IMG/VR virus record: IMGVR_UViG_3300028888_000084
Coordinates: 1-64,000 of that record
Reading direction: 5' to 3' (one strand)
Length of the DNA stretch: 64,000 nucleotides
Source of the DNA: a virus
Taxonomy: Duplodnaviria; Caudoviricetes
Part shown: positions 4,676-23,584 of the stretch, piece after piece
How the letters are laid out: every line of letters begins with the position of its first letter
How positions within the stretch are numbered: position 1 is the first letter of the stretch
Program-made: the position numbers and the translations under genes
The notes under the pieces: generated by a model
The model's input: only the letters and a program-made list of their open reading frames with translations
Database searches by the model: none
Told to the model about the DNA's origin: nothing

Positions 4676-5200
4676 TTATATATCCATTATAGAATTATAA
4701 TATTTCAAGTATTGTTGTAAATCAAATTCACTTGAAAAATGTTCTGCAAATGGTTTTATTCTAACAATCGCATTACAAAGTTTGTCTTTTAAATTCTCAT
4801 CAAATTCCCTCTTCTTTTTACTTTGCATAATGCTTTTTTGAAAATTTAATATTTTAAGATTATCAGCCAACAAATCTAAAACATCACCTATACTATAATT
4901 TCTTTGAATATACCAATACATTGTATACCACAATATATACACATCTATATAATCTAAATTTTCTTCTTTTACTATACTTGAAGGAATTAGATATATAGGA
5001 TTTATTGTATAATCCCTATTCGTGATTTTCTTCGTGTTATCGTCATAATTATTAAAAGATACTATGGTTCTATGATATTGATTTACATCCCATACACTTA
5101 AATCAAAATTAAAATCAGATGTAATTCTGCCAACTCTTAATTTATTATAATAAATAAAATAAACATCTTCACCAGCTTTAATTTTAAAATCAAAATCCAT
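4676..5200 (-). CDS. hypothetical protein, paralog of 5220-5756
   Basis: MDFDFKI start after a GGGGG RBS; shares ENLDYIDVYIL with its neighbour. Confidence 0.8.
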   Translation of the reverse strand: MDFDFKIKAGEDVYFIYYNKLRVGRITSDFNFDLSVWDVNQYHRTIVSFNNYDDNTKKITNRDYTINPIYLIPSSIVKEENLDYIDVYILWYTMYWYIQRNYSIGDVLDLLADNLKILNFQKSIMQSKKKREFDENLKDKLCNAIVRIKPFAEHFSSEFDLQQYLKYYNSIMDI

Positions 5201-5219
5201 TTTTGATACCCCCATTCTT

Positions 5220-5756
5220 TTACGATTCAATAACGGAATTATAATACTTTATAAATTCTTCATAATGGCTATCTGGACAACGGTCTTTAAAACTATCAAC
5301 AAAAGGTTTCATTGTAATAATTGCTTTATAAATTCTATTTTTTAATTCGTTATTAAATTCTTTTTTCTTTTTACTTTTCAAAATTTCTTTATCAAAATTA
5401 AAAATGTGTAAACTATCGCACAAATCCTTTAAAGTAGAATTCATATTTTGTATCGCACTATGTCCTTGCATTAAACGCAATAATATATATACATCTATAT
5501 AATCTAAGTTTTCTTTTTTTGCTACACTTATAGGTAACACTGCAAGACAATTTACGTCAAAATGTCTAATATTTTTTATACCATTATAACCTTCTTCTAT
5601 ATAAGTTATTTCTGGATATCTGGTTTGTTTTTTATCTAAAGTTGTTAAATCAAAATTGAATTCAGAAGAATTGCGTTCAAATTTACCTACTGCTATACCC
5701 CCATATAAATTAAAACAAACTTCTTCATTAGGTTCAATTTTAAAATTGAAATCCAT
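5220..5756 (-). CDS. hypothetical protein, paralog of 4676-5200
   Basis: MDFNFKI...ENLDYIDVYIL...SKKKKEF. Confidence 0.8.
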   Translation of the reverse strand: MDFNFKIEPNEEVCFNLYGGIAVGKFERNSSEFNFDLTTLDKKQTRYPEITYIEEGYNGIKNIRHFDVNCLAVLPISVAKKENLDYIDVYILLRLMQGHSAIQNMNSTLKDLCDSLHIFNFDKEILKSKKKKEFNNELKNRIYKAIITMKPFVDSFKDRCPDSHYEEFIKYYNSVIES

Positions 5757-13360: not shown

Positions 13361-13391
13361 CAAAAGCAAGGCATTTGTCGCCTTGCTTTTG
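13361..13391 (-). terminator. Rho-independent terminator
   Basis: CAAAAGCAAGGC-7 nt-GCCTTGCTTTTG. Confidence 0.8.
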
Positions 13392-13407: not shown

Positions 13408-13761
13408 TGCTTGACTGTGCAGCCACGTGGGAAACCACACGTTATTACCTCATCCGATTAACCATTAATCATGGATTTAATAATATTTAATGACTTTGTT
13501 ATTTCAACTTTAAGAAAGAAGAATTTTAATGCTTAACCTTTATCCCTTAAATTTTGAACTTCTAACGGTATCAATGGACTCAGTTAAATAGATTCAACAA
13601 TCTATTTGGTGTCCACCACTAGAACGATTTTATCGTTTCAACACATTAACATATCGCTTTGTTGGTGCGGTATTGTTAAATAAAGGGGCGTCAATACGCC
13701 AGCTGTATCATTTACCCAATGATAAAGGGGAGATAAATCGTGGTTTTCGCACAACCAAGCA
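13408..13761 (-). ncRNA. candidate large structured ncRNA (~354 nt)
   Basis: 13-bp terminal stem UGCUUGGUUGUGC/GCACAGUCAAGCA with two G-U pairs; at least 5 internal hairpins; heptad repeat tract; no ORF; followed by a terminator. Confidence 0.7.
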
Positions 13762-13768
13762 TATAGGT

Positions 13769-14404
13769 TTAATCTATTAAATTGACAGTAATTTTAGTAA
13801 TTGTGTTGCTTTCTGATAATTTGTAATCAACTTCTGACTCAAATTCGTCAATTTCTTTTTCTAATTCATTGATTACATCATTTATTTTGCACGGATCTAC
13901 TAAATAATATTCATTATTATCATAGAATTGTTTTTCAAATTTGGCAACTACTTCAGGATCACTTTTATCTTTTTCGCCAATTACGGATTTCAGGTAACTT
14001 TCCAAATTATTCTTCAATGATTCATTCTTTGTTTCTATATTATGCATGGCATTTACATATTGTGCTTTTAATTCAGCAAGTAATTTTCTTTCCATATCTA
14101 TCATTGATTTTCTTTCTATTGCTTCAGCAACAGTATATTCTTTATCGCCAATAGTAATTTTCGTATTAGCATTTGATAAAACAATCGCAGATTTTACAAT
14201 CTTTTTGTTTTCCATTAAAGCCCTTACACTATCCAAATCTCCTTTTAATAAATCAGAATATTCTTGTATTGTGTAACTTCCGATTTTGTCATTTCCTTTC
14301 TTTGTGTAGGTTACAAAACTTTTGTTAAGTCCCTTCCAAATTTTATTGTCGTATAATTTTAATTCTGCTAATGCTTGATGTATAGACATCACTTTTTCTG
14401 CCAT
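13769..14404 (-). CDS. coiled-coil protein resembling the DIP1984/DUF6847 family
   Basis: MSIHQALAELK...SNANTKI.I....YTVAEAIERK...LEKEIDEFESEVDYKLSESN.IT.I; family assignment is from recollection. Confidence 0.6.
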   Translation of the reverse strand: MAEKVMSIHQALAELKLYDNKIWKGLNKSFVTYTKKGNDKIGSYTIQEYSDLLKGDLDSVRALMENKKIVKSAIVLSNANTKITIGDKEYTVAEAIERKSMIDMERKLLAELKAQYVNAMHNIETKNESLKNNLESYLKSVIGEKDKSDPEVVAKFEKQFYDNNEYYLVDPCKINDVINELEKEIDEFESEVDYKLSESNTITKITVNLID

Positions 14405-14445
14405 TTCACATTACCTCCTAAATTTTAATTTTTGAACTTTATAAA

Positions 14446-14553
14446 ATTATTAAAGCCACAATCGTTGCCTTCAGTATGTGGTAAACAGCAACTCACCCCT
14501 CACCCTTATACGTTCTTTTCCAAACGACCACATTTGGTGGTGGCTTTAATAAT
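14446..14553 (-). ncRNA. candidate ~108-nt structured RNA with possible pseudoknot
   Basis: 14-bp perfect closing stem ATTATTAAAGCCAC/GTGGCTTTAATAAT; internal GTTGC/GCAAC hairpin whose loop ACCACAT is complementary to ATGTGGT. Confidence 0.55.
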
Positions 14554-14626
14554 GGTGATAGCGGTCGGACTTACACCGACATCAACACCCCCTGCGGATG
14601 CCGTTTTATAATTAAACTACACTATC
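14553..14626 (-). tRNA. non-canonical tRNA-like RNA with encoded CCA (nominal anticodon CAG)
   Basis: Full cloverleaf: acceptor GATAGTG/CGCTATC + A + CCA; D stem GTTT/AAAC; anticodon stem GCATC/GGTGT; T stem GTCGG/CCGAC; all loops deviate from consensus. Confidence 0.7.
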
Positions 14627-14639
14627 ATATTTATTATGG

Positions 14640-15080
14640 TTATATTATATCATTATTGTAATATTTTGTCAAGTATTCTTTTATCATCTCCTGTGTTTTT
14701 TCTAAACCATTACGTTTTAGATATCTATTAACATATCCCCTTCCCCTTTTAATAATATAAGACCATTCGTTTCCACTATGAATTACACCATCTATTTCTA
14801 TTATATTTGTTGTTGACTTAAATCTTGAATTTTCTTCTTTTGTTATCCACCTACAATTATCGGGTGAATAATCTTTAGTGCTATCTATTCTATCAATAGT
14901 TAATATATCATTGTAACCATTATCAAATGACCATTTAAAAAAATTTTCTTGATTTATTAGCCAGTCATCACAGATTCTTATGTTTTTAGCACCGTAAAAC
15001 CTATAATCTTTATCTAATTTATTATAACATCTTGAATACATTTTTGCAAATATAATTTTTAATCGTCTGTTTTTATTCAT
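14640..15080 (-). CDS. HNH-type homing endonuclease-like protein
   Basis: MYSRCYN....Y..YGAK.I.ICDDW...TIDRIDS...YSPDNCRWIT..EN. Confidence 0.75.
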   Translation of the reverse strand: MNKNRRLKIIFAKMYSRCYNKLDKDYRFYGAKNIRICDDWLINQENFFKWSFDNGYNDILTIDRIDSTKDYSPDNCRWITKEENSRFKSTTNIIEIDGVIHSGNEWSYIIKRGRGYVNRYLKRNGLEKTQEMIKEYLTKYYNNDII

Positions 15081-15191: not shown

Positions 15192-15220
15192 ATTCTATCA
15201 TAGGCATCACGAATTGTCAA
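15192..15220 (-). promoter_or_regulatory. sigmaA-type promoter driving the HNH/tRNA-like/ncRNA operon
   Basis: TTGACA-17 bp-TAGAAT. Confidence 0.7.
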
Positions 15221-15234
15221 GCATTTTTTAAAAT

Positions 15235-16527
15235 TTATTTATAACTTACTTCTTTACCTTCTTCACGTAATTCATCAAAAACAGGAAATCTTAAAGACTT
15301 CTTGCCTTCTTTATTTTGTGTTTCTTCAAAGTATCTAACCTTGATAACTCTACCAACAAGTTTATCACGATTTGCCCAAAAATAATCACGTTCATCAGAC
15401 GTAAATCCACTACCTACATTAAGAATACTTCCTTTATAATCAACCAGTATAGCACCTAATGTGTCCTTGAACCTGCCTTCCCCCTCTTGAAATCCCAAAA
15501 TTTCCAAGTCGCAATCTTGCATAACTTTTACTTTTAACAAATTGTTAGTCCTTTTGAAATCATAAACTGCGTCATTCAAATTTATCATTATTCCTTCTTC
15601 GCCATCTTTTCTTGCTCGTGTAAGAAGTTCACCTATTTTATTTATATCATTACCAGAATACAATGCAGGAACTACTTTTACAAAGTTTAATTTAGAAAAT
15701 ATTTTCTCTAAAACATATCTTCTTTGTGCATAAGAAAATGTGCATTTTTTATTGTCAAATTCTTTGAATGATAATATGTCAAAAGCCAGCAGTTGAACAC
15801 CGTGTTTTTCGCCATCTTTGGTTACAATTTCAATGGTTTTTTTATACTGTATTTTGCTTGGAAATTTCTTACGATCTAGTATCATAATTTCGCCATCTAA
15901 AACAAAGTTATCGCAATCAAAATTTGATAATTCATTTACTATATCTACTAGTCCATCTATCTTTTGTCCTTGTCTTGAATATACTGTAATTTTGCCTTCA
16001 TTCTTTATCAGAATACAGCGAATTCCATCAAATTTTGTAGTTATCGTAAAGTTTTTACCATCTACAATTTCAGGTTTTTCAAAATATTTATTCGCCAACA
16101 TAACTTGAAAATCTGGTAAAAAATTAGGAATGGCAGTATTTACAAGTTTGATATTACATCCTATTTTTAATTTTTTTGTAATAATTTCTTCGATAAATGT
16201 AGCATATTCAGCACCATAAATTCTTGATATAGCTCTTAAACTATTCTGAACATAATTGATATCTAAATCAGTTCCAGTATTATGTTTTAACAAATATTTA
16301 AACAGATTTTTAACGTCAATATTTCCTTCATGCGTGATTTCTATGGTAAATTTTTTATTCAATTTATTCGTAGAAATTCCAAAAATATTGTCTGGATTTA
16401 GTAACATATCTAGTAAAAACAAGAAGTCTTTATTATCTTTATTAGCCTTTAAAATTTCTATTTTTTCTAATTTGGAATTGGTATTCGACAAAGAATCGAA
16501 TATGGCTTTATTTTTTGCAAGATCCAT
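15235..16527 (-). CDS. lig: ATP-dependent DNA ligase
   Basis: KFDGIR adenylation motif, LDGE, FDIL, EGIM, LLKVK, VGSGF, SLRFPVF. Confidence 0.95.
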   Translation of the reverse strand: MDLAKNKAIFDSLSNTNSKLEKIEILKANKDNKDFLFLLDMLLNPDNIFGISTNKLNKKFTIEITHEGNIDVKNLFKYLLKHNTGTDLDINYVQNSLRAISRIYGAEYATFIEEIITKKLKIGCNIKLVNTAIPNFLPDFQVMLANKYFEKPEIVDGKNFTITTKFDGIRCILIKNEGKITVYSRQGQKIDGLVDIVNELSNFDCDNFVLDGEIMILDRKKFPSKIQYKKTIEIVTKDGEKHGVQLLAFDILSFKEFDNKKCTFSYAQRRYVLEKIFSKLNFVKVVPALYSGNDINKIGELLTRARKDGEEGIMINLNDAVYDFKRTNNLLKVKVMQDCDLEILGFQEGEGRFKDTLGAILVDYKGSILNVGSGFTSDERDYFWANRDKLVGRVIKVRYFEETQNKEGKKSLRFPVFDELREEGKEVSYK

Positions 16528-16548: not shown

Positions 16549-17157
16549 TTAATTTATCCATTTTATAATAGGATCGCCTTGAAATCCCTTTTCCCAAACA
16601 AACCAGCCATAAGCCACAGCACTTGAAAATTTGTTATCAAAATCACCATTTTTACAACATTTAAGCCTTGAGCTTGATACGTATATAACTTTAGGTGGAT
16701 ACTTCTTAAACATTTCTTTTCTTGATTTTCCTTCTAAAAAAGTAAGTTTAAGAAACATAGCGACTTTGTGTCCATCTTGTATAAGATCCATAGCCTTTTC
16801 TACAAAGGCTTGAGCGAAACTATATGGTGGATTTGTGATTATATCGCCATTCCACAGGTTTTGTGAATCTGGCACAACTTTTAGAAAATCTATAATTTCC
16901 GTCTGTGGGTAACCCCTGTCTATTATATCACTACACCTTACATTATGTCCAGTATTTTTTAAAACTTCTGCTAAATGTCCACCACCTACTGCACTCTCCC
17001 ATATATTATTATCAAATTCTTCCTCTTTTAGTAATAATTCCATAGCTAAAGGTTCTGTCGCATAATAGTCATTAATTTCACGTTCTTCTTCCGTATGACT
17101 ACTTGCACCTAAAATTTTCCAAACTGATTTGTCGTTACCTTTCCAATCTTTCGACAT
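16549..17157 (-). CDS. DNA N6-adenine methyltransferase
   Basis: DYYAT, WESAVGGG SAM-binding motif, ITNPPY catalytic motif. Confidence 0.85.
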   Translation of the reverse strand: MSKDWKGNDKSVWKILGASSHTEEEREINDYYATEPLAMELLLKEEEFDNNIWESAVGGGHLAEVLKNTGHNVRCSDIIDRGYPQTEIIDFLKVVPDSQNLWNGDIITNPPYSFAQAFVEKAMDLIQDGHKVAMFLKLTFLEGKSRKEMFKKYPPKVIYVSSSRLKCCKNGDFDNKFSSAVAYGWFVWEKGFQGDPIIKWIN

Positions 17158-17175
17158 TTTTATAACCCCCTTTTT

Positions 17176-18105
17176 TTAATAACCAGTTGCTTTCTTATCG
17201 CATTTATTTAATAATATCAAATTTTTAAATTTAGTTTTACCGAACACTTGTTCGTATTTTTTTAATTGTTTTTCAGTTTTCCATTCAAAAGGCAACATAT
17301 GATAATTTACATAAAAAAGTGTATCTAATGTATTTCTAATATCACTAGGAAATCTTATTATATCCAATAATTGATAAGCACCTACATTTGCGTGACCATA
17401 ATAAGATGTTTCGCCATCTTCTTTGGTTTTCGCAGTCGCCATTTTACCTATATCGTGTAGTAAAGCACCTGCTATCAATGTAGGGGAATTATCGAAATCG
17501 GCATCTTTTTTCAACTCTTCATAGCACCTTAATGTATGTTCATATAAATCATATTTATGATAATGTGTATTTTGGTCATAACCTTCCATTCCAGTTATAA
17601 AACCTTCCCATTCATCTTCAGATGTTATTTTTCTATTTATAAATTTATGAATAATTATATCATCAAATCCTTCTTCGTAAAATGGAATTTGATAGCTTTT
17701 TACCTGTTTAAGTATAACATCTTTGCCCACCATTTTTTCACGATTTTTGTCGTCTTCTATACAAATTTCTATTGGTTTAGTCATAATATAAGCAATTATT
17801 TTAGTTTCAAGATTTCCTTGTTTTGCAATATTTTTTATTGTATTTATCAGACCTTTTCTACTTTTCATAGTAATATTGGTTGCATCAACGATTATGTTTT
17901 TGGAACTTAATAACAAATCTTTGATTCTTTTGTTAAGTTCTTCAAATACTTGTGTATTATGTTCAGTATCATTAATATCATTATATAAGTCTATACGAAT
18001 TTGGTCTGAAGATACCACTATTGCGTCATGTTTTTTAGCCATAAAATTAGCCACAGACGATTTTCCACTGCCACTAATACCAACCATAATTATTATTTTT
18101 GACAT
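17176..18105 (-). CDS. polynucleotide kinase (P-loop) fused to an HD phosphohydrolase domain
   Basis: GISGSGKS, SSDQIR, DATN; C-terminal H...LLHDIGK...H...HM. Confidence 0.85.
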   Translation of the reverse strand: MSKIIIMVGISGSGKSSVANFMAKKHDAIVVSSDQIRIDLYNDINDTEHNTQVFEELNKRIKDLLLSSKNIIVDATNITMKSRKGLINTIKNIAKQGNLETKIIAYIMTKPIEICIEDDKNREKMVGKDVILKQVKSYQIPFYEEGFDDIIIHKFINRKITSEDEWEGFITGMEGYDQNTHYHKYDLYEHTLRCYEELKKDADFDNSPTLIAGALLHDIGKMATAKTKEDGETSYYGHANVGAYQLLDIIRFPSDIRNTLDTLFYVNYHMLPFEWKTEKQLKKYEQVFGKTKFKNLILLNKCDKKATGY

Positions 18106-18118
18106 TATTAGCACCCCT

Positions 18119-19201
18119 TTATTTTATAAATTTTAATATTTTTTGCGTAGGTAAAGACAAAAAATAATCGTCTTTATAATTCCCATCAATGTAGCAAAAA
18201 CAAGCAGATTTTATATAAGATTCTTTATCTTGTAAACATAATGCTAAATCTTTTCTACTGTTAAAAGGATTATGTGAAATAAAATCTATTGCACTTTCTA
18301 TTTCTGTTTCACATTTATTTATCTTATCTTCTACATCCTTTATCATTGTATCATATTCGGGATAGTATGTCAAGAATTCTTCTTTATCTCCAGATTTTAT
18401 TAGTTCAATTATCCTTCTGGTATTCACAATGCCATTACTTTTCATAAAGAAAGATGCTACATATGCTGGTGATTTAATTTTTATTCTATTAAAATCTTTG
18501 TCTACTACCACATACCCCTCTTCGTCATATGGTAAATCTTTGGCGATATTTACAATCGTATCTAAATTTTTATCAAAAAAATATTCTTTTGGAGTTGTAA
18601 TACCTAAAAGAGGACAAAAATATTCTTGTAATGTTTTATTATTTCTTTCAGATAATTTTATCAATTTCGTTTCTTTATATGGAACTACTACCCTATTATA
18701 CGGCGAAATTAACTCGAACATATAAGTTACGTCTTTTTCTAAGGTATAGAGATTTTCATTTATAATTTCATATTCTTTAGTTTTCTTTATAAGATCCATG
18801 AAATTGGCTAGATTTTCTGTGTCGGATAGTGGTGCATCATTTGCATCTATCATCCCATTCGTTGCCCATTTCCACCCGTTATGATAAAACAATTTTATTA
18901 GCGATCCATCAACTTTTTCTTGTATTTTGGCACTTGACCAATCAATTTTTGCAGCATTTGGTGAAGAATAATTAAAGAATTTAAACATAGGTACGCAAAC
19001 AGGAATAAATTTATCATTGTCTTTGTAGAAGATTATTCCCCTGCTTTCTTGAACTATTTTTTGGTTGAAATCTGAATTGAACGTATCATAGCAAAATATA
19101 TAATAATTATCCTTATTTTTTATTTTAAGAAAATATGGTTGATTAGTGAGAATTTCATACCAATTTCTATTTTCATTCAATACCTTTTCTAATTCTAACA
19201 T
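18119..19201 (-). CDS. RNA ligase, T4 Rnl1-like
   Basis: ESRGIIF, KFFN, EKVDGSL, FEL, EGYVV, KIKSPAY. Confidence 0.85.
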   Translation of the reverse strand: MLELEKVLNENRNWYEILTNQPYFLKIKNKDNYYIFCYDTFNSDFNQKIVQESRGIIFYKDNDKFIPVCVPMFKFFNYSSPNAAKIDWSSAKIQEKVDGSLIKLFYHNGWKWATNGMIDANDAPLSDTENLANFMDLIKKTKEYEIINENLYTLEKDVTYMFELISPYNRVVVPYKETKLIKLSERNNKTLQEYFCPLLGITTPKEYFFDKNLDTIVNIAKDLPYDEEGYVVVDKDFNRIKIKSPAYVASFFMKSNGIVNTRRIIELIKSGDKEEFLTYYPEYDTMIKDVEDKINKCETEIESAIDFISHNPFNSRKDLALCLQDKESYIKSACFCYIDGNYKDDYFLSLPTQKILKFIK

Positions 19202-19975: not shown

Positions 19976-20572
19976 TTAAATGTCAGCTACGAATGATTGA
20001 AATTTGGTTTTGTAATATTTTTCTCCTTCTTTTATAATTGTATCTAAATTTTGTGGTTCATAATTTATGTAAGGCATCATACATCCTACATTGTATGCAA
20101 AACATTGTTTACCACTTTTTCTAACATCATTTATATATTTTTCGTATAGATCTTGTTCTTCTGAATTATGAAGATGACCATAAAGATGGATACTTCCCCT
20201 TTGCATACCATTCCAACTAAATAAAGGATAATGACACAAAACAAATAATTGTTTATTAAATCTTATTTCTTTGTAGTCAGTTACTTCTTCAAATAATGAT
20301 TTATTCGCTAAAGATTCTGTGCCATTCGTATGATTACCACGAATTAAAACTTTTTTACCTTTTAATGTTTCGATTATATTATGTGATACAGTGTCATTAC
20401 ACCAAAACATATCACCTAAAATATAAACGGTATCTTTTGGTGTAATTTTATTGTTCCAATTAGATACTATAACATTATTCATTTCTTCTATTGTTTCAAA
20501 TGGTCTATTATCAAATTTAATTGAATTTTTATGAAACATATGATAATCGCTTATAAAAAACATATCGCCCAC
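19976..20572 (-). CDS. calcineurin-like metallophosphoesterase
   Basis: SDYH, LGD, GNH, CHYP, GHLH, NVG. Confidence 0.9.
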   Translation of the reverse strand: MGDMFFISDYHMFHKNSIKFDNRPFETIEEMNNVIVSNWNNKITPKDTVYILGDMFWCNDTVSHNIIETLKGKKVLIRGNHTNGTESLANKSLFEEVTDYKEIRFNKQLFVLCHYPLFSWNGMQRGSIHLYGHLHNSEEQDLYEKYINDVRKSGKQCFAYNVGCMMPYINYEPQNLDTIIKEGEKYYKTKFQSFVADI

Positions 20573-22951: not shown

Positions 22952-23584
22952 CTATTTCTTAAAATCTTCTACTTTTATTTTTGTTATTATTCTTCTGCCA
23001 CATCTATCCTGTAATTCAATCTTTGGTCTACCTACTACCCCTTCCATTGGTGCTTGACCTATTGTTGATGGTGGATTGGTTTTTACGAAATCCACACCAT
23101 CTTGTATTGTTCCTTCTAGCACTATCGGAACTATATCTAAATTAAACATTTGTGCTATTTCTTCAACTGTTTCTCTTGACTGATAATTTCCGCAAATCAT
23201 AACATCAAATAAAATAAAATCTTGTGTCTTTTTATATAGTCCGCCTACACCTTGAATTTTCGCACCATATCCTTCGCCTACCAACATTACTTCTTTTTCA
23301 CCGAAGTTTTGTTCGAATATTTGTTCGTTTGCTTCACCACCAAATAATTCTATAAGTCTATTGGTTAATTCAGTAGGTATCATAGCGGCATCAGTTCTTC
23401 CATAAAAACTTACCTTATAACCATCCCAAACAACACGTATATTTGTTCCATCTATTTTTTCGGTAAACTGCCAAGTATTGTTTTTTAAGAATTCCACTTC
23501 ATCATTTCTATAACAGCCTTCCATTATTTTTTTTGTTTTTTCATCTCTTTTGAACAGTCCATCAATCTTATGATAACCTACCAT
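22952..23584 (-). CDS. RNA ligase-family nucleotidyltransferase (Rnl2-like core)
   Basis: YHKI, TEKIDGTN, GEGYG, FDV, EGVV, KIK. Confidence 0.8.
   Translation of the reverse strand: MVGYHKIDGLFKRDEKTKKIMEGCYRNDEVEFLKNNTWQFTEKIDGTNIRVVWDGYKVSFYGRTDAAMIPTELTNRLIELFGGEANEQIFEQNFGEKEVMLVGEGYGAKIQGVGGLYKKTQDFILFDVMICGNYQSRETVEEIAQMFNLDIVPIVLEGTIQDGVDFVKTNPPSTIGQAPMEGVVGRPKIELQDRCGRRIITKIKVEDFKK

What the first reader, a model, noticed from the sequence alone, without database searches (positions are those of the whole stretch)
14553..14626. Complete tRNA cloverleaf with every conserved loop signature missing
Seen: all four stems pair, stem and loop lengths are canonical (74 nt) and CCA is encoded. 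However, the D-loop (AAUUAUA) lacks G18G19, the T-loop is UGUAAGU rather than UUCRANU, and position 33 is G. The nominal Leu anticodon CAG comes without the long variable arm of tRNA-Leu. Intact stems with divergent loops fit selection on shape better than random decay. Inference: a tRNA mimic acting as a nuclease decoy, processing tag or RNP component rather than as a decoder.
Basis: partly seen in the sequence, partly recalled or inferred. Interest (0 to 1): 0.7.

Follow-up and report, generated by a model that had tools for sequence, protein, structure and literature searches.

The report
Odd but genuine phage tRNA gene
The flagged 74-base element is a real tRNA-family gene, the only one in this 99-kb sheep-rumen phage; its corner contacts are rewired and its codon-reading loop looks unfit for decoding, so it is probably a tRNA-shaped RNA with a job outside normal translation, though a recently disabled tRNA is not excluded.

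Summary
The cloverleaf exists, on the minus strand (14626->14553), with CCA. ARAGORN calls it tRNA-Leu(CAG). The Rfam tRNA model gives 41.8 bits (threshold 29) when only this stretch is searched; window-scale searches lost it in the speed filters. So "every loop signature missing" is overstated: U8, A14, A21, U54, A58, G53-C61, R15-Y48 and A73-CCA are kept. Changed are both elbow contacts, on both sides (U18/G55, A19-U56), and U33 (G). C32-G38 can close the anticodon loop to 5 nt.

The elbow resembles a recurrent phage tRNA class (D loop AAUAGUA, T loop UGCAAGU) whose members have normal anticodon loops.

It sits 11 nt behind a perfect sigma-70 promoter, at the head of a unit that in distant relatives holds ordinary tRNAs. 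An RNA-library contig joins it to the downstream gene. CUG is the fifth-rarest sense codon.

Best reading: a tRNA-shaped, probably non-decoding RNA. Its deviations match those of staphylococcal non-proteogenic tRNA-Gly. Decoy, donor and processing roles are untested. Close relatives could not be read, so a young pseudogene remains possible.

This scan had noted a related rewired-elbow tRNA class on other DNA.

Moderately interesting; a new variant of a known kind.

The parts
14644..14672 (-). sigma-70 promoter TTGACA-17-TATAAT with TG extended -10; lies inside the 3' end of the HNH ORF
   Evidence: 12 of 12 match. It is one of about 30 near-consensus minus-strand promoters in the phage.
14627..14637 (-). 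predicted 11-nt 5' leader (AUAAUAAAUAU) ending in U(-1) before G+1; inferred RNase P site
   Evidence: Read from the sequence. The start site is inferred from the -10 position. One variant, 14631 T>G, occurs in two related runs.
14553..14626 (-). 74-nt tRNA-family gene: nominal anticodon CAG, 4-nt variable region, A73, encoded CCA
   Evidence: ARAGORN. Rfam RF00005 41.8 bits. Fold z-score -2.7.
14607..14613 (-). D loop AAUUAUA (U18, A19 in place of G18, G19)
   Evidence: alignment A2
14590..14596 (-). anticodon loop CGCAGGG (C32, G33, CAG, G37, G38); C32-G38 can pair, leaving a 5-nt loop
   Evidence: The minimum-free-energy fold closes the loop to 5 nt.
14569..14575 (-). T loop UGUAAGU (U54, G55, U56, A57, A58, G59, U60)
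14446..14553 (-). 108-nt RNA closed by a 14-bp stem that starts at the last A of CCA, with two interleaved inner helices (pseudoknot)
   Evidence: Fold. Four compensatory pair changes in the X4/X5 lineage. Absent in the X3 lineage.
13769..14404 (-). 211-aa ORF of a large phage family of unknown function (phrog_1491, annotated 'tail fiber')
13409..13743 (-). abundant 3' non-coding RNA after the ORF
   Evidence: 358-nt contig at depth 201 in RNA run X2, with adapter letters at 13743.
13361..13391 (-). terminator-like hairpin with U tract at the end of the unit
   Evidence: sequence
14640..15080 (-). free-standing HNH endonuclease gene just upstream; present or absent among close relatives
   Evidence: phrog_3377. 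The X5 contig skips 14665-15061.

Best explanation
This is a genuine descendant of a tRNA gene and the only tRNA in this rumen phage. It is transcribed from its own consensus promoter as the first element of a tRNA-operon-like unit: tRNA, 108-nt pseudoknot RNA, 211-aa gene, abundant 3' RNA. It keeps the tRNA L-shape through a rewired elbow (U18/G55 and a Watson-Crick A19-U56 replacing G18-Psi55 and G19-C56). It offers a textbook RNase P site (U-1, G1-C72, A73, CCA). Its anticodon arm is G-rich, lacks U33 and can close to a 5-nt loop, and its nominal codon CUG is almost unused. I therefore infer that it does not work as a normal decoder. It more likely acts as a tRNA-shaped RNA outside the ribosome, for example a decoy or substrate for a tRNA-binding enzyme or nuclease, or an amino-acid carrier. 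This would parallel the staphylococcal non-proteogenic tRNA-Gly species, which show the same three deviations. Shown: the structure, family membership, promoter match, operon position, and presence in an RNA-library contig. Inferred: the folding of the elbow, processing, non-decoding status, and any decoy or donor role.
For: Family and structure:
- ARAGORN cloverleaf with 21/21 pairs and CCA.
- Rfam tRNA 41.8 bits against a threshold of 29.
- Only 1 ARAGORN false call in 60 shuffles of the window.

Elbow:
- Both elbow contacts are changed on both partners.
- Eight distinct phage tRNAs, covering Thr, Asn, Asp, Lys, Met and His, share a D loop AAUAGUA and T loop UGCAAGU with canonical anticodon loops. 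The window element aligns to them in the D and T arms and differs at 18, 19 and 56, with 19-56 compensated.

Transcription:
- A 12/12 promoter with extended -10 lies about 11 nt upstream.
- A 638-nt contig of metatranscriptome run X2 spans 13993-14608 without a mismatch, joining the last 56 nt of the tRNA, the 108-nt element and the ORF.

Context:
- Homologues of the 211-aa gene in about 160 phage loci are flanked on the same strand by ordinary tRNAs scoring 38-77 bits.

Against decoding:
- G33 and a possible C32-G38 pair.
- A 4-nt variable region with a Leu anticodon.
- CUG is 29 of about 25,000 codons, the fifth rarest sense codon, and is not concentrated in late genes.

Other:
- T4 Rnl1-like RNA ligase and kinase/HD end-healing genes lie 2.5-4.5 kb upstream, and a second RNA ligase lies at 22952-23584.
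Against: - No conservation test was possible. The only close relatives (runs X3, X4, X5) were seen through a truncated difference table, and their divergence from the window is mosaic. The lack of listed differences inside the tRNA is therefore uninformative.
- No other tRNA with the A19/U56 version was found in IMG/VR, GenBank phages or GTDB genomes. The variant is confined to one lineage.
- A single U33-to-G change in an otherwise working tRNA would give the same anticodon loop.
- No partner enzyme (Fem-type transferase, Ro60, anticodon nuclease) was identified among the window ORFs screened.
- The RNA-library contig does not prove transcription, and it does not show a mature 74-nt species.
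Confidence: 0.45

Rival explanations
1. Recently disabled tRNA gene. It would be the last survivor of a tRNA array that this phage lineage has otherwise lost, inactivated for decoding by the anticodon-loop change (U33 to G) and not yet decayed.
For: It is the only tRNA in the 99-kb record, whereas relatives hold 1-11 tRNAs around the same gene. The anticodon loop is one substitution away from a canonical C-U-CAG-G-N loop. CUG is hardly used. The A19/U56 variant is found nowhere else. The Rfam score is 27 bits below that of a class member.
Against: All 21 stem pairs are intact, with no A-C or other mismatch, despite a 29% G+C genome. The element stays at 47% G+C, and the anticodon arm at about 70%. 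The perfect promoter and the encoded CCA are kept. Both elbow contacts are changed on both sides, which needs several coordinated changes.
Confidence: 0.28
2. Cis-acting processing or stability handle. The tRNA shape would recruit RNase P (and a 3' nuclease) to trim the primary transcript and define the 5' end of the downstream pseudoknot RNA and mRNA, as in tRNA punctuation and plant mitochondrial t-elements.
For: It is the first element behind the promoter and is directly fused, at the A of CCA, to a 108-nt structured RNA and then to the mRNA. An RNA-library contig bridges all three. U-1/G+1/A73/CCA is an optimal RNase P substrate (from the sequence plus established RNase P rules).
Against: RNase P needs only the acceptor/T-arm half and the elbow, yet the D and anticodon arms are also fully paired. 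The X3 lineage keeps the tRNA but lacks the 108-nt element. In relatives, ordinary tRNAs occupy this place simply as members of a tRNA operon.
Confidence: 0.15
3. Working decoder. It would be an unusual type-I tRNA that is charged (with Leu or another amino acid) and reads CUG for the phage.
For: It passes the tRNA covariance model. It has A73, A14, A15-U48 and G37, as CUN-reading Leu tRNAs do (sequence; identity rules recalled from the literature, not tested). Class members with the A18/G55 elbow look like normal decoders.
Against: G33 removes the U-turn. C32-G38 can close the loop. There is no long variable arm. CUG is 1.1 per 1000 codons.
Confidence: 0.12

Closest known systems
Canonical bacterial and phage elongator tRNA (Rfam RF00005)
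   Same: The same cloverleaf and stem lengths. U8, A14, A21, U54, A58, G53-C61, R15-Y48, A73 and CCA are kept. Scores above the family threshold (41.8 bits).
   Different: G18, G19, U55, C56 and U33 are all replaced. The anticodon loop is G-rich and can close. A Leu anticodon sits on a short-arm body.
Rewired-elbow phage tRNAs (D loop AAUAGUA, T loop UGCAAGU; A18 with G55), seen here in L036, L066, L178, L187, L217, L234, L247 and L274
   Same: 7-nt D loop. U54-G55-N56-A57-A58-G59-U60 T loop. The D-arm and T-arm sequence is shared (alignment A2).
   Different: Class members keep G19-C56 and canonical C/U-U-NNN-A-A anticodon loops and score about 68 bits. The window element has U18, A19-U56, G33 and 41.8 bits. 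I found no paper describing this class.
Non-proteogenic tRNA-Gly (NP1-NP3) of Staphylococcus aureus and S. epidermidis, glycine donors for Fem transferases (PMC13443448, PMC4574755)
   Same: Lack G18-G19 and U55. An extra pair shortens the anticodon loop. Full cloverleaf with CCA. Excluded from translation.
   Different: Those are tRNA-Gly (UCC) charged by GlyRS, and their partner enzymes are known. Here the anticodon is CAG and the discriminator A73, no transferase gene was found, and charging is untested.
   Same: Odd tRNA-shaped RNAs of unknown function encoded among phage tRNA genes. The 211-aa gene family next to this element also occurs in T5-like phages.
Phage tRNAs that evade tRNA-cleaving defences (T5 tRNA-Lys and tRNA-Tyr; PMC10264068, PMC11555353)
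   Same: Phage-encoded tRNAs with altered anticodon loops; RNA repair genes are present in the same genome.
   Different: Those remain working decoders that replace a cleaved host tRNA. This one looks unfit for decoding, and its codon is almost unused.

Membership tests
tRNA (Rfam RF00005) | Covariance-model score at or above the gathering threshold (29 bits) | tested here: met
   41.8 bits, E 2.6e-8, full-length match 1-71. Missed at window and genome scale by the speed filters.
tRNA (Rfam RF00005) | Cloverleaf with 7/4/5/5-bp stems, 7-nt anticodon and T loops, and a discriminator | tested here: met
   ARAGORN drawing; 21/21 pairs, 3 of them G-U.
tRNA (Rfam RF00005) | Elbow nucleotides G18, G19, U55, C56 | tested here: not met
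   U18, A19, G55, U56. The 19-56 pair is replaced by a possible A-U pair.
tRNA (Rfam RF00005) | U33 and an open 7-nt anticodon loop | tested here: not met
   G33. C32-G38 pairs in the minimum-free-energy fold.
tRNA (Rfam RF00005) | Aminoacylation and decoding | not testable with these tools
   Needs an acid-urea Northern blot, or aaRS and ribosome assays.
Bacterial tRNA-Leu | Long variable arm (type II) | tested here: not met
   The variable region is 4 nt. A tRNA-Leu in related loci is 83-86 nt long.
Bacterial tRNA-Leu | Discriminator A73 | tested here: met
   A at 14556, before CCA.
Rewired-elbow phage tRNA class (AAUAGUA / UGCAAGU) | D loop AAUAGUA and T loop UGCAAGU | tested here: inconclusive
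   5 of 7 and 6 of 7 positions match; the differences are at 18, 19 and 56.
Rewired-elbow phage tRNA class (AAUAGUA / UGCAAGU) | Canonical anticodon loop | tested here: not met
   All eight class members have Y32-U33 and A37-A38. The window element has CGCAGGG.
Non-proteogenic tRNA-Gly (Staphylococcus) | Loss of G18-G19 and U55 plus an extra pair closing the anticodon loop | tested here: met
   Sequence, compared with the description in PMC13443448.
Non-proteogenic tRNA-Gly (Staphylococcus) | Glycine identity (UCC anticodon) and a Fem-type transferase partner | tested here: not met
   The anticodon is CAG. No FemAB-type family was found among 38 window ORFs scanned against Pfam. The rest of the genome was not scanned.
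Y RNA / YrlA tRNA mimic | Ro60 (TROVE) gene nearby and a match to the YrlA or Y RNA model | tested here: not met
   No TROVE domain in the ORFs tested. No Rfam match.

The most novel reading that the evidence does not exclude
A phage keeps one purpose-built, non-decoding tRNA. Its elbow is rebuilt with a different pair set (U18/G55, A19-U56), and its anticodon loop is closed and lacks U33. It is made at high level from a consensus promoter. It would act as a decoy or inhibitor for a host tRNA-targeting defence nuclease, working beside the phage's RNA ligase and end-healing genes, or as an amino-acid carrier for a non-ribosomal transferase. That would be the phage counterpart of the staphylococcal non-proteogenic tRNAs.
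Probability: 0.3. Interest if true: 0.7.

Novelty: new variant of a known kind. Interest (0 to 1): 0.45.

Why it matters
Phage tRNAs are now known to serve in the arms race with tRNA-cleaving defences. Odd tRNA-like RNAs in the tRNA clusters of phages such as T4 and T5 have, to my knowledge, no assigned function.

This element is a clean test object. It is a single tRNA in its genome, with a strong promoter. Its elbow appears compensated rather than broken, and its anticodon loop should not decode.

If it is functional, two things follow:
- The G19-C56 and G18-Psi55 contacts can be exchanged for another pair set in nature.
- It would be a second natural example, after staphylococcal tRNA-Gly, of a tRNA built to stay off the ribosome.

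There is also a practical point. Genome-scale Rfam scans miss such genes through filter loss although the full model accepts them.

Tried and rejected
**Tools and searches that led nowhere**
The contigs of the close homologues P0002-P0010 (61-98% identity) could not be fetched.
- An exact T-arm pattern in IMG/VR gave three chance hits with no tRNA.
- The A19/U56-specific pattern gave 77 chance hits and no tRNA.
- Two patterns in GTDB genomes gave nothing.
- blastn of the 74 nt against GenBank phages found no match.
- blastn against 160 related loci found no homologue.

**Limits of the read-laying result**
- The difference table was cut: 69 rows are hidden.
- Divergence among X3, X4 and X5 is mosaic, so 'no listed difference inside the tRNA' is not evidence of selection.
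- Stretches of RNA run X2 without cover, such as the HNH gene, are not used as evidence.
- The RNA contig stops at 14608, inside the D loop, with 22 unaligned letters. I could not check whether these are adapter.

**Readings considered and dropped**
- Ro60/Y RNA: suggested by an 'RNA-binding protein' annotated near the ligase of Fusobacterium phages. Dropped because no TROVE protein and no Y RNA match were found.
- attP fragment of a host tRNA: rejected. The gene is complete, has its own promoter, and matches no GTDB genome.
- Known self-cleaving ribozymes or other Rfam families for the flanking RNAs: none at E up to 10.
- Function of the 211-aa protein: PDB and atlas searches gave none.

Full report
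**Observation**

The element is real and lies on the minus strand, 14626 down to 14553. ARAGORN calls it tRNA-Leu(CAG), and it is the only tRNA call in the window and in the whole 99,360-bp virus record. The drawing shows:
- a 7-bp acceptor stem;
- a 4-bp D stem with loop AAUUAUA;
- a 5-bp anticodon stem with loop CGCAGGG;
- a 4-nt variable region;
- a 5-bp T stem with loop UGUAAGU;
- A73 and an encoded CCA.

All 21 stem pairs are standard; three are G-U. ARAGORN made one call in 60 dinucleotide-preserving shuffles of the window, so a chance call is unlikely.

**Correction to the observation**

At window scale, at 601 bases and at genome scale the Rfam tRNA model reported nothing. When only 14545-14635 was searched, the same model gave a full-length match of 41.8 bits, against a family threshold of 29, with E 2.6e-8. 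The earlier blanks were losses in the speed filters, which rely on primary sequence.

The alignment shows what is kept: U8, A9, G10, A14, A15, A21, G26, U54, A57, A58, G53-C61, Y48 and A73. What is replaced is narrow:
- G18 and G19, now U and A;
- U55 and C56, now G and U;
- U33, now G.

"Every conserved loop signature missing" is therefore too strong.

**The elbow**

Both D-loop/T-loop contacts have changed on both partners. Position 19-56 is A-U in place of G-C, which is a Watson-Crick replacement. Position 18-55 is U/G in place of G/Psi.

Among 123 tRNAs called in 160 related phage loci, and among hits to a loop pattern in IMG/VR, I found eight distinct tRNAs with D loop AAUAGUA and T loop UGCAAGU, that is A18 with G55 and G19-C56. 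They cover Thr, Asn, Asp, Lys, Met and His. They have canonical anticodon loops, and one scores 68.4 bits.

The window element aligns with them through the D and T arms (alignment A2). It differs at 18, 19 and 56.

So G55 with a non-GG D loop is a recurrent and apparently working phage variant. The window element is a further step from it, in which the outer elbow pair is compensated. I found no paper on it. That the A19-U56 pair actually forms is inference.

**The anticodon arm**

The loop has no U at all, so no register gives U33. C32 and G38 can pair, and the minimum-free-energy fold does close the loop to 5 nt. The arm is about 70% G+C in a 29% G+C genome.

CUG, the nominal codon, occurs 29 times in about 25,000 codons. 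It is the fifth rarest sense codon and is not concentrated in late genes. The body has a short variable region, unlike bacterial and phage tRNA-Leu. A normal decoding role is therefore unlikely, although one U33-to-G change in a working tRNA could produce this loop.

**Surroundings**

The phage is an AT-rich virus of about 100 kb from sheep and bovine gut samples. All its genes lie on the minus strand.

A 12/12 sigma-70 promoter with extended -10 (14672-14644) places the predicted start about 11 nt before G+1. U-1, G1-C72, A73 and CCA are what bacterial RNase P prefers; this rests on established knowledge and was not tested.

The last A of CCA begins a 14-bp stem that closes a 108-nt RNA. After that come the ribosome-binding site and a 211-aa ORF, about 350 nt of non-coding sequence, and a terminator.

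In metatranscriptome run X2, one contig (depth 8) spans 13993-14608 without a mismatch. It joins the tRNA's last 56 nt, the 108-nt RNA and the ORF. Another contig (depth 201) covers 13409-13743. Contigs from an RNA library do not prove transcription, but the pieces match the predicted unit.

Upstream lie, in order, an HNH endonuclease, an ATP-dependent DNA ligase, a methyltransferase-like protein, a kinase/HD end-healing protein and a T4 Rnl1-like RNA ligase. A second RNA ligase lies at 22952-23584.

**Relatives**

The 211-aa protein has more than 1,300 homologues. They occur in T5-like and many other large phages.

In IMG/VR and metagenome loci the gene is flanked on the same strand by ordinary tRNAs. 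These lie either 50-450 nt upstream or about 400 nt downstream. The gene is often followed directly by RAGATH-27 RNA. The window element thus occupies a normal tRNA slot in a conserved tRNA-island module.

Close relatives were visible only through laid contigs:
- one lineage (X5) lacks the HNH gene;
- another (X3) lacks the 108-nt RNA but keeps the tRNA;
- no difference shared by two runs falls inside the tRNA.

The difference table was truncated and divergence is mosaic, so this does not demonstrate selection. No homologue with the A19/U56 version exists in IMG/VR, GenBank phages or GTDB genomes.

**Interpretation**

With high confidence this is a real tRNA-family gene. It is neither a chance fold nor an unrelated mimic.

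With moderate confidence (0.45) it is maintained as a tRNA-shaped RNA that does not decode. The reasons are the intact stems, the doubly changed elbow contacts, the retained promoter and CCA, the G-rich U33-less closable loop, and the unused codon.

The closest functional precedent is the non-proteogenic tRNA-Gly of staphylococci. [quoted passage not shown] They are charged but kept off the ribosome (PMC13443448, PMC4574755).

A decoy role against tRNA-cleaving defences is attractive, given the RNA repair genes and known phage tRNA counter-defence (PMC10264068, PMC11555353). It is untested, and no partner was found.

The rivals are:
- a recently disabled tRNA (0.28);
- a cis-acting processing handle (0.15);
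- a working CUG decoder (0.12).

**Verdict**

This is a new variant of a known kind and is moderately interesting. The decisive missing datum is the sequence of this gene in relatives at 60-98% identity.

Noticed in passing
window 14446-14553 (-): The 108-nt RNA fused to the CCA end has two interleaved helices. Both carry compensatory changes in the X4/X5 lineage: AUGUGGU/ACCACAU becomes ACACGGU/ACCGUGU, and GUUGC/GCAAC becomes GAUGC/GCAUC. The G-rich stretch between them is not conserved. The X3 lineage lacks the element altogether (skip 14437-14543, with a 5-nt repeat UAAAG at both edges). No Rfam family matches it.
   Followed up: partly
window 13409-13743 (-): A 358-nt contig at depth 201 in a sheep-gut metatranscriptome covers exactly this non-coding stretch after the 211-aa gene, against depth 8 for the gene itself, with adapter letters at 13743. 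In relatives the same position holds RAGATH-27 RNA (L019, L030, L050, L065, L078). The window sequence does not match that model.
   Followed up: partly
window 14640-15080 (-): The HNH endonuclease gene is present in the window and in the X3 lineage. It is missing in the X5 lineage (joint 14664|15062), which leaves a 6-codon remnant and removes the -35 box of the tRNA promoter but keeps the extended -10.
   Followed up: partly
L019-L022 2826-2897; L019 4073-4151; L050, L059, L065, L079 around 5100-5500: Related phages carry a tRNA with anticodon UUA (reads the UAA stop codon), and tRNAs for which ARAGORN reports only two-base anticodons (6-nt anticodon loops), next to the homologous gene.
   Followed up: no
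window 16549-19201 and 22952-23584 (-): RNA repair set: a T4 Rnl1-like ligase, a P-loop kinase fused to an HD phosphohydrolase, and a second small RNA ligase (PF09414); a metallophosphoesterase lies at 19976-20572.
   Followed up: no
window 14632-14683, 14832-14900, 15213-15248: Short stretches around the promoters also align, with 4-13 mismatches, to many unrelated contigs of the gut runs. This suggests a promoter-region motif shared across phages of this habitat.
   Followed up: no
L063 4398-4505; L050 2664-2836: drum RNA and FuFi-1 RNA (Rfam) occur beside homologues of the 211-aa gene, so this module collects several orphan structured RNAs.
   Followed up: no
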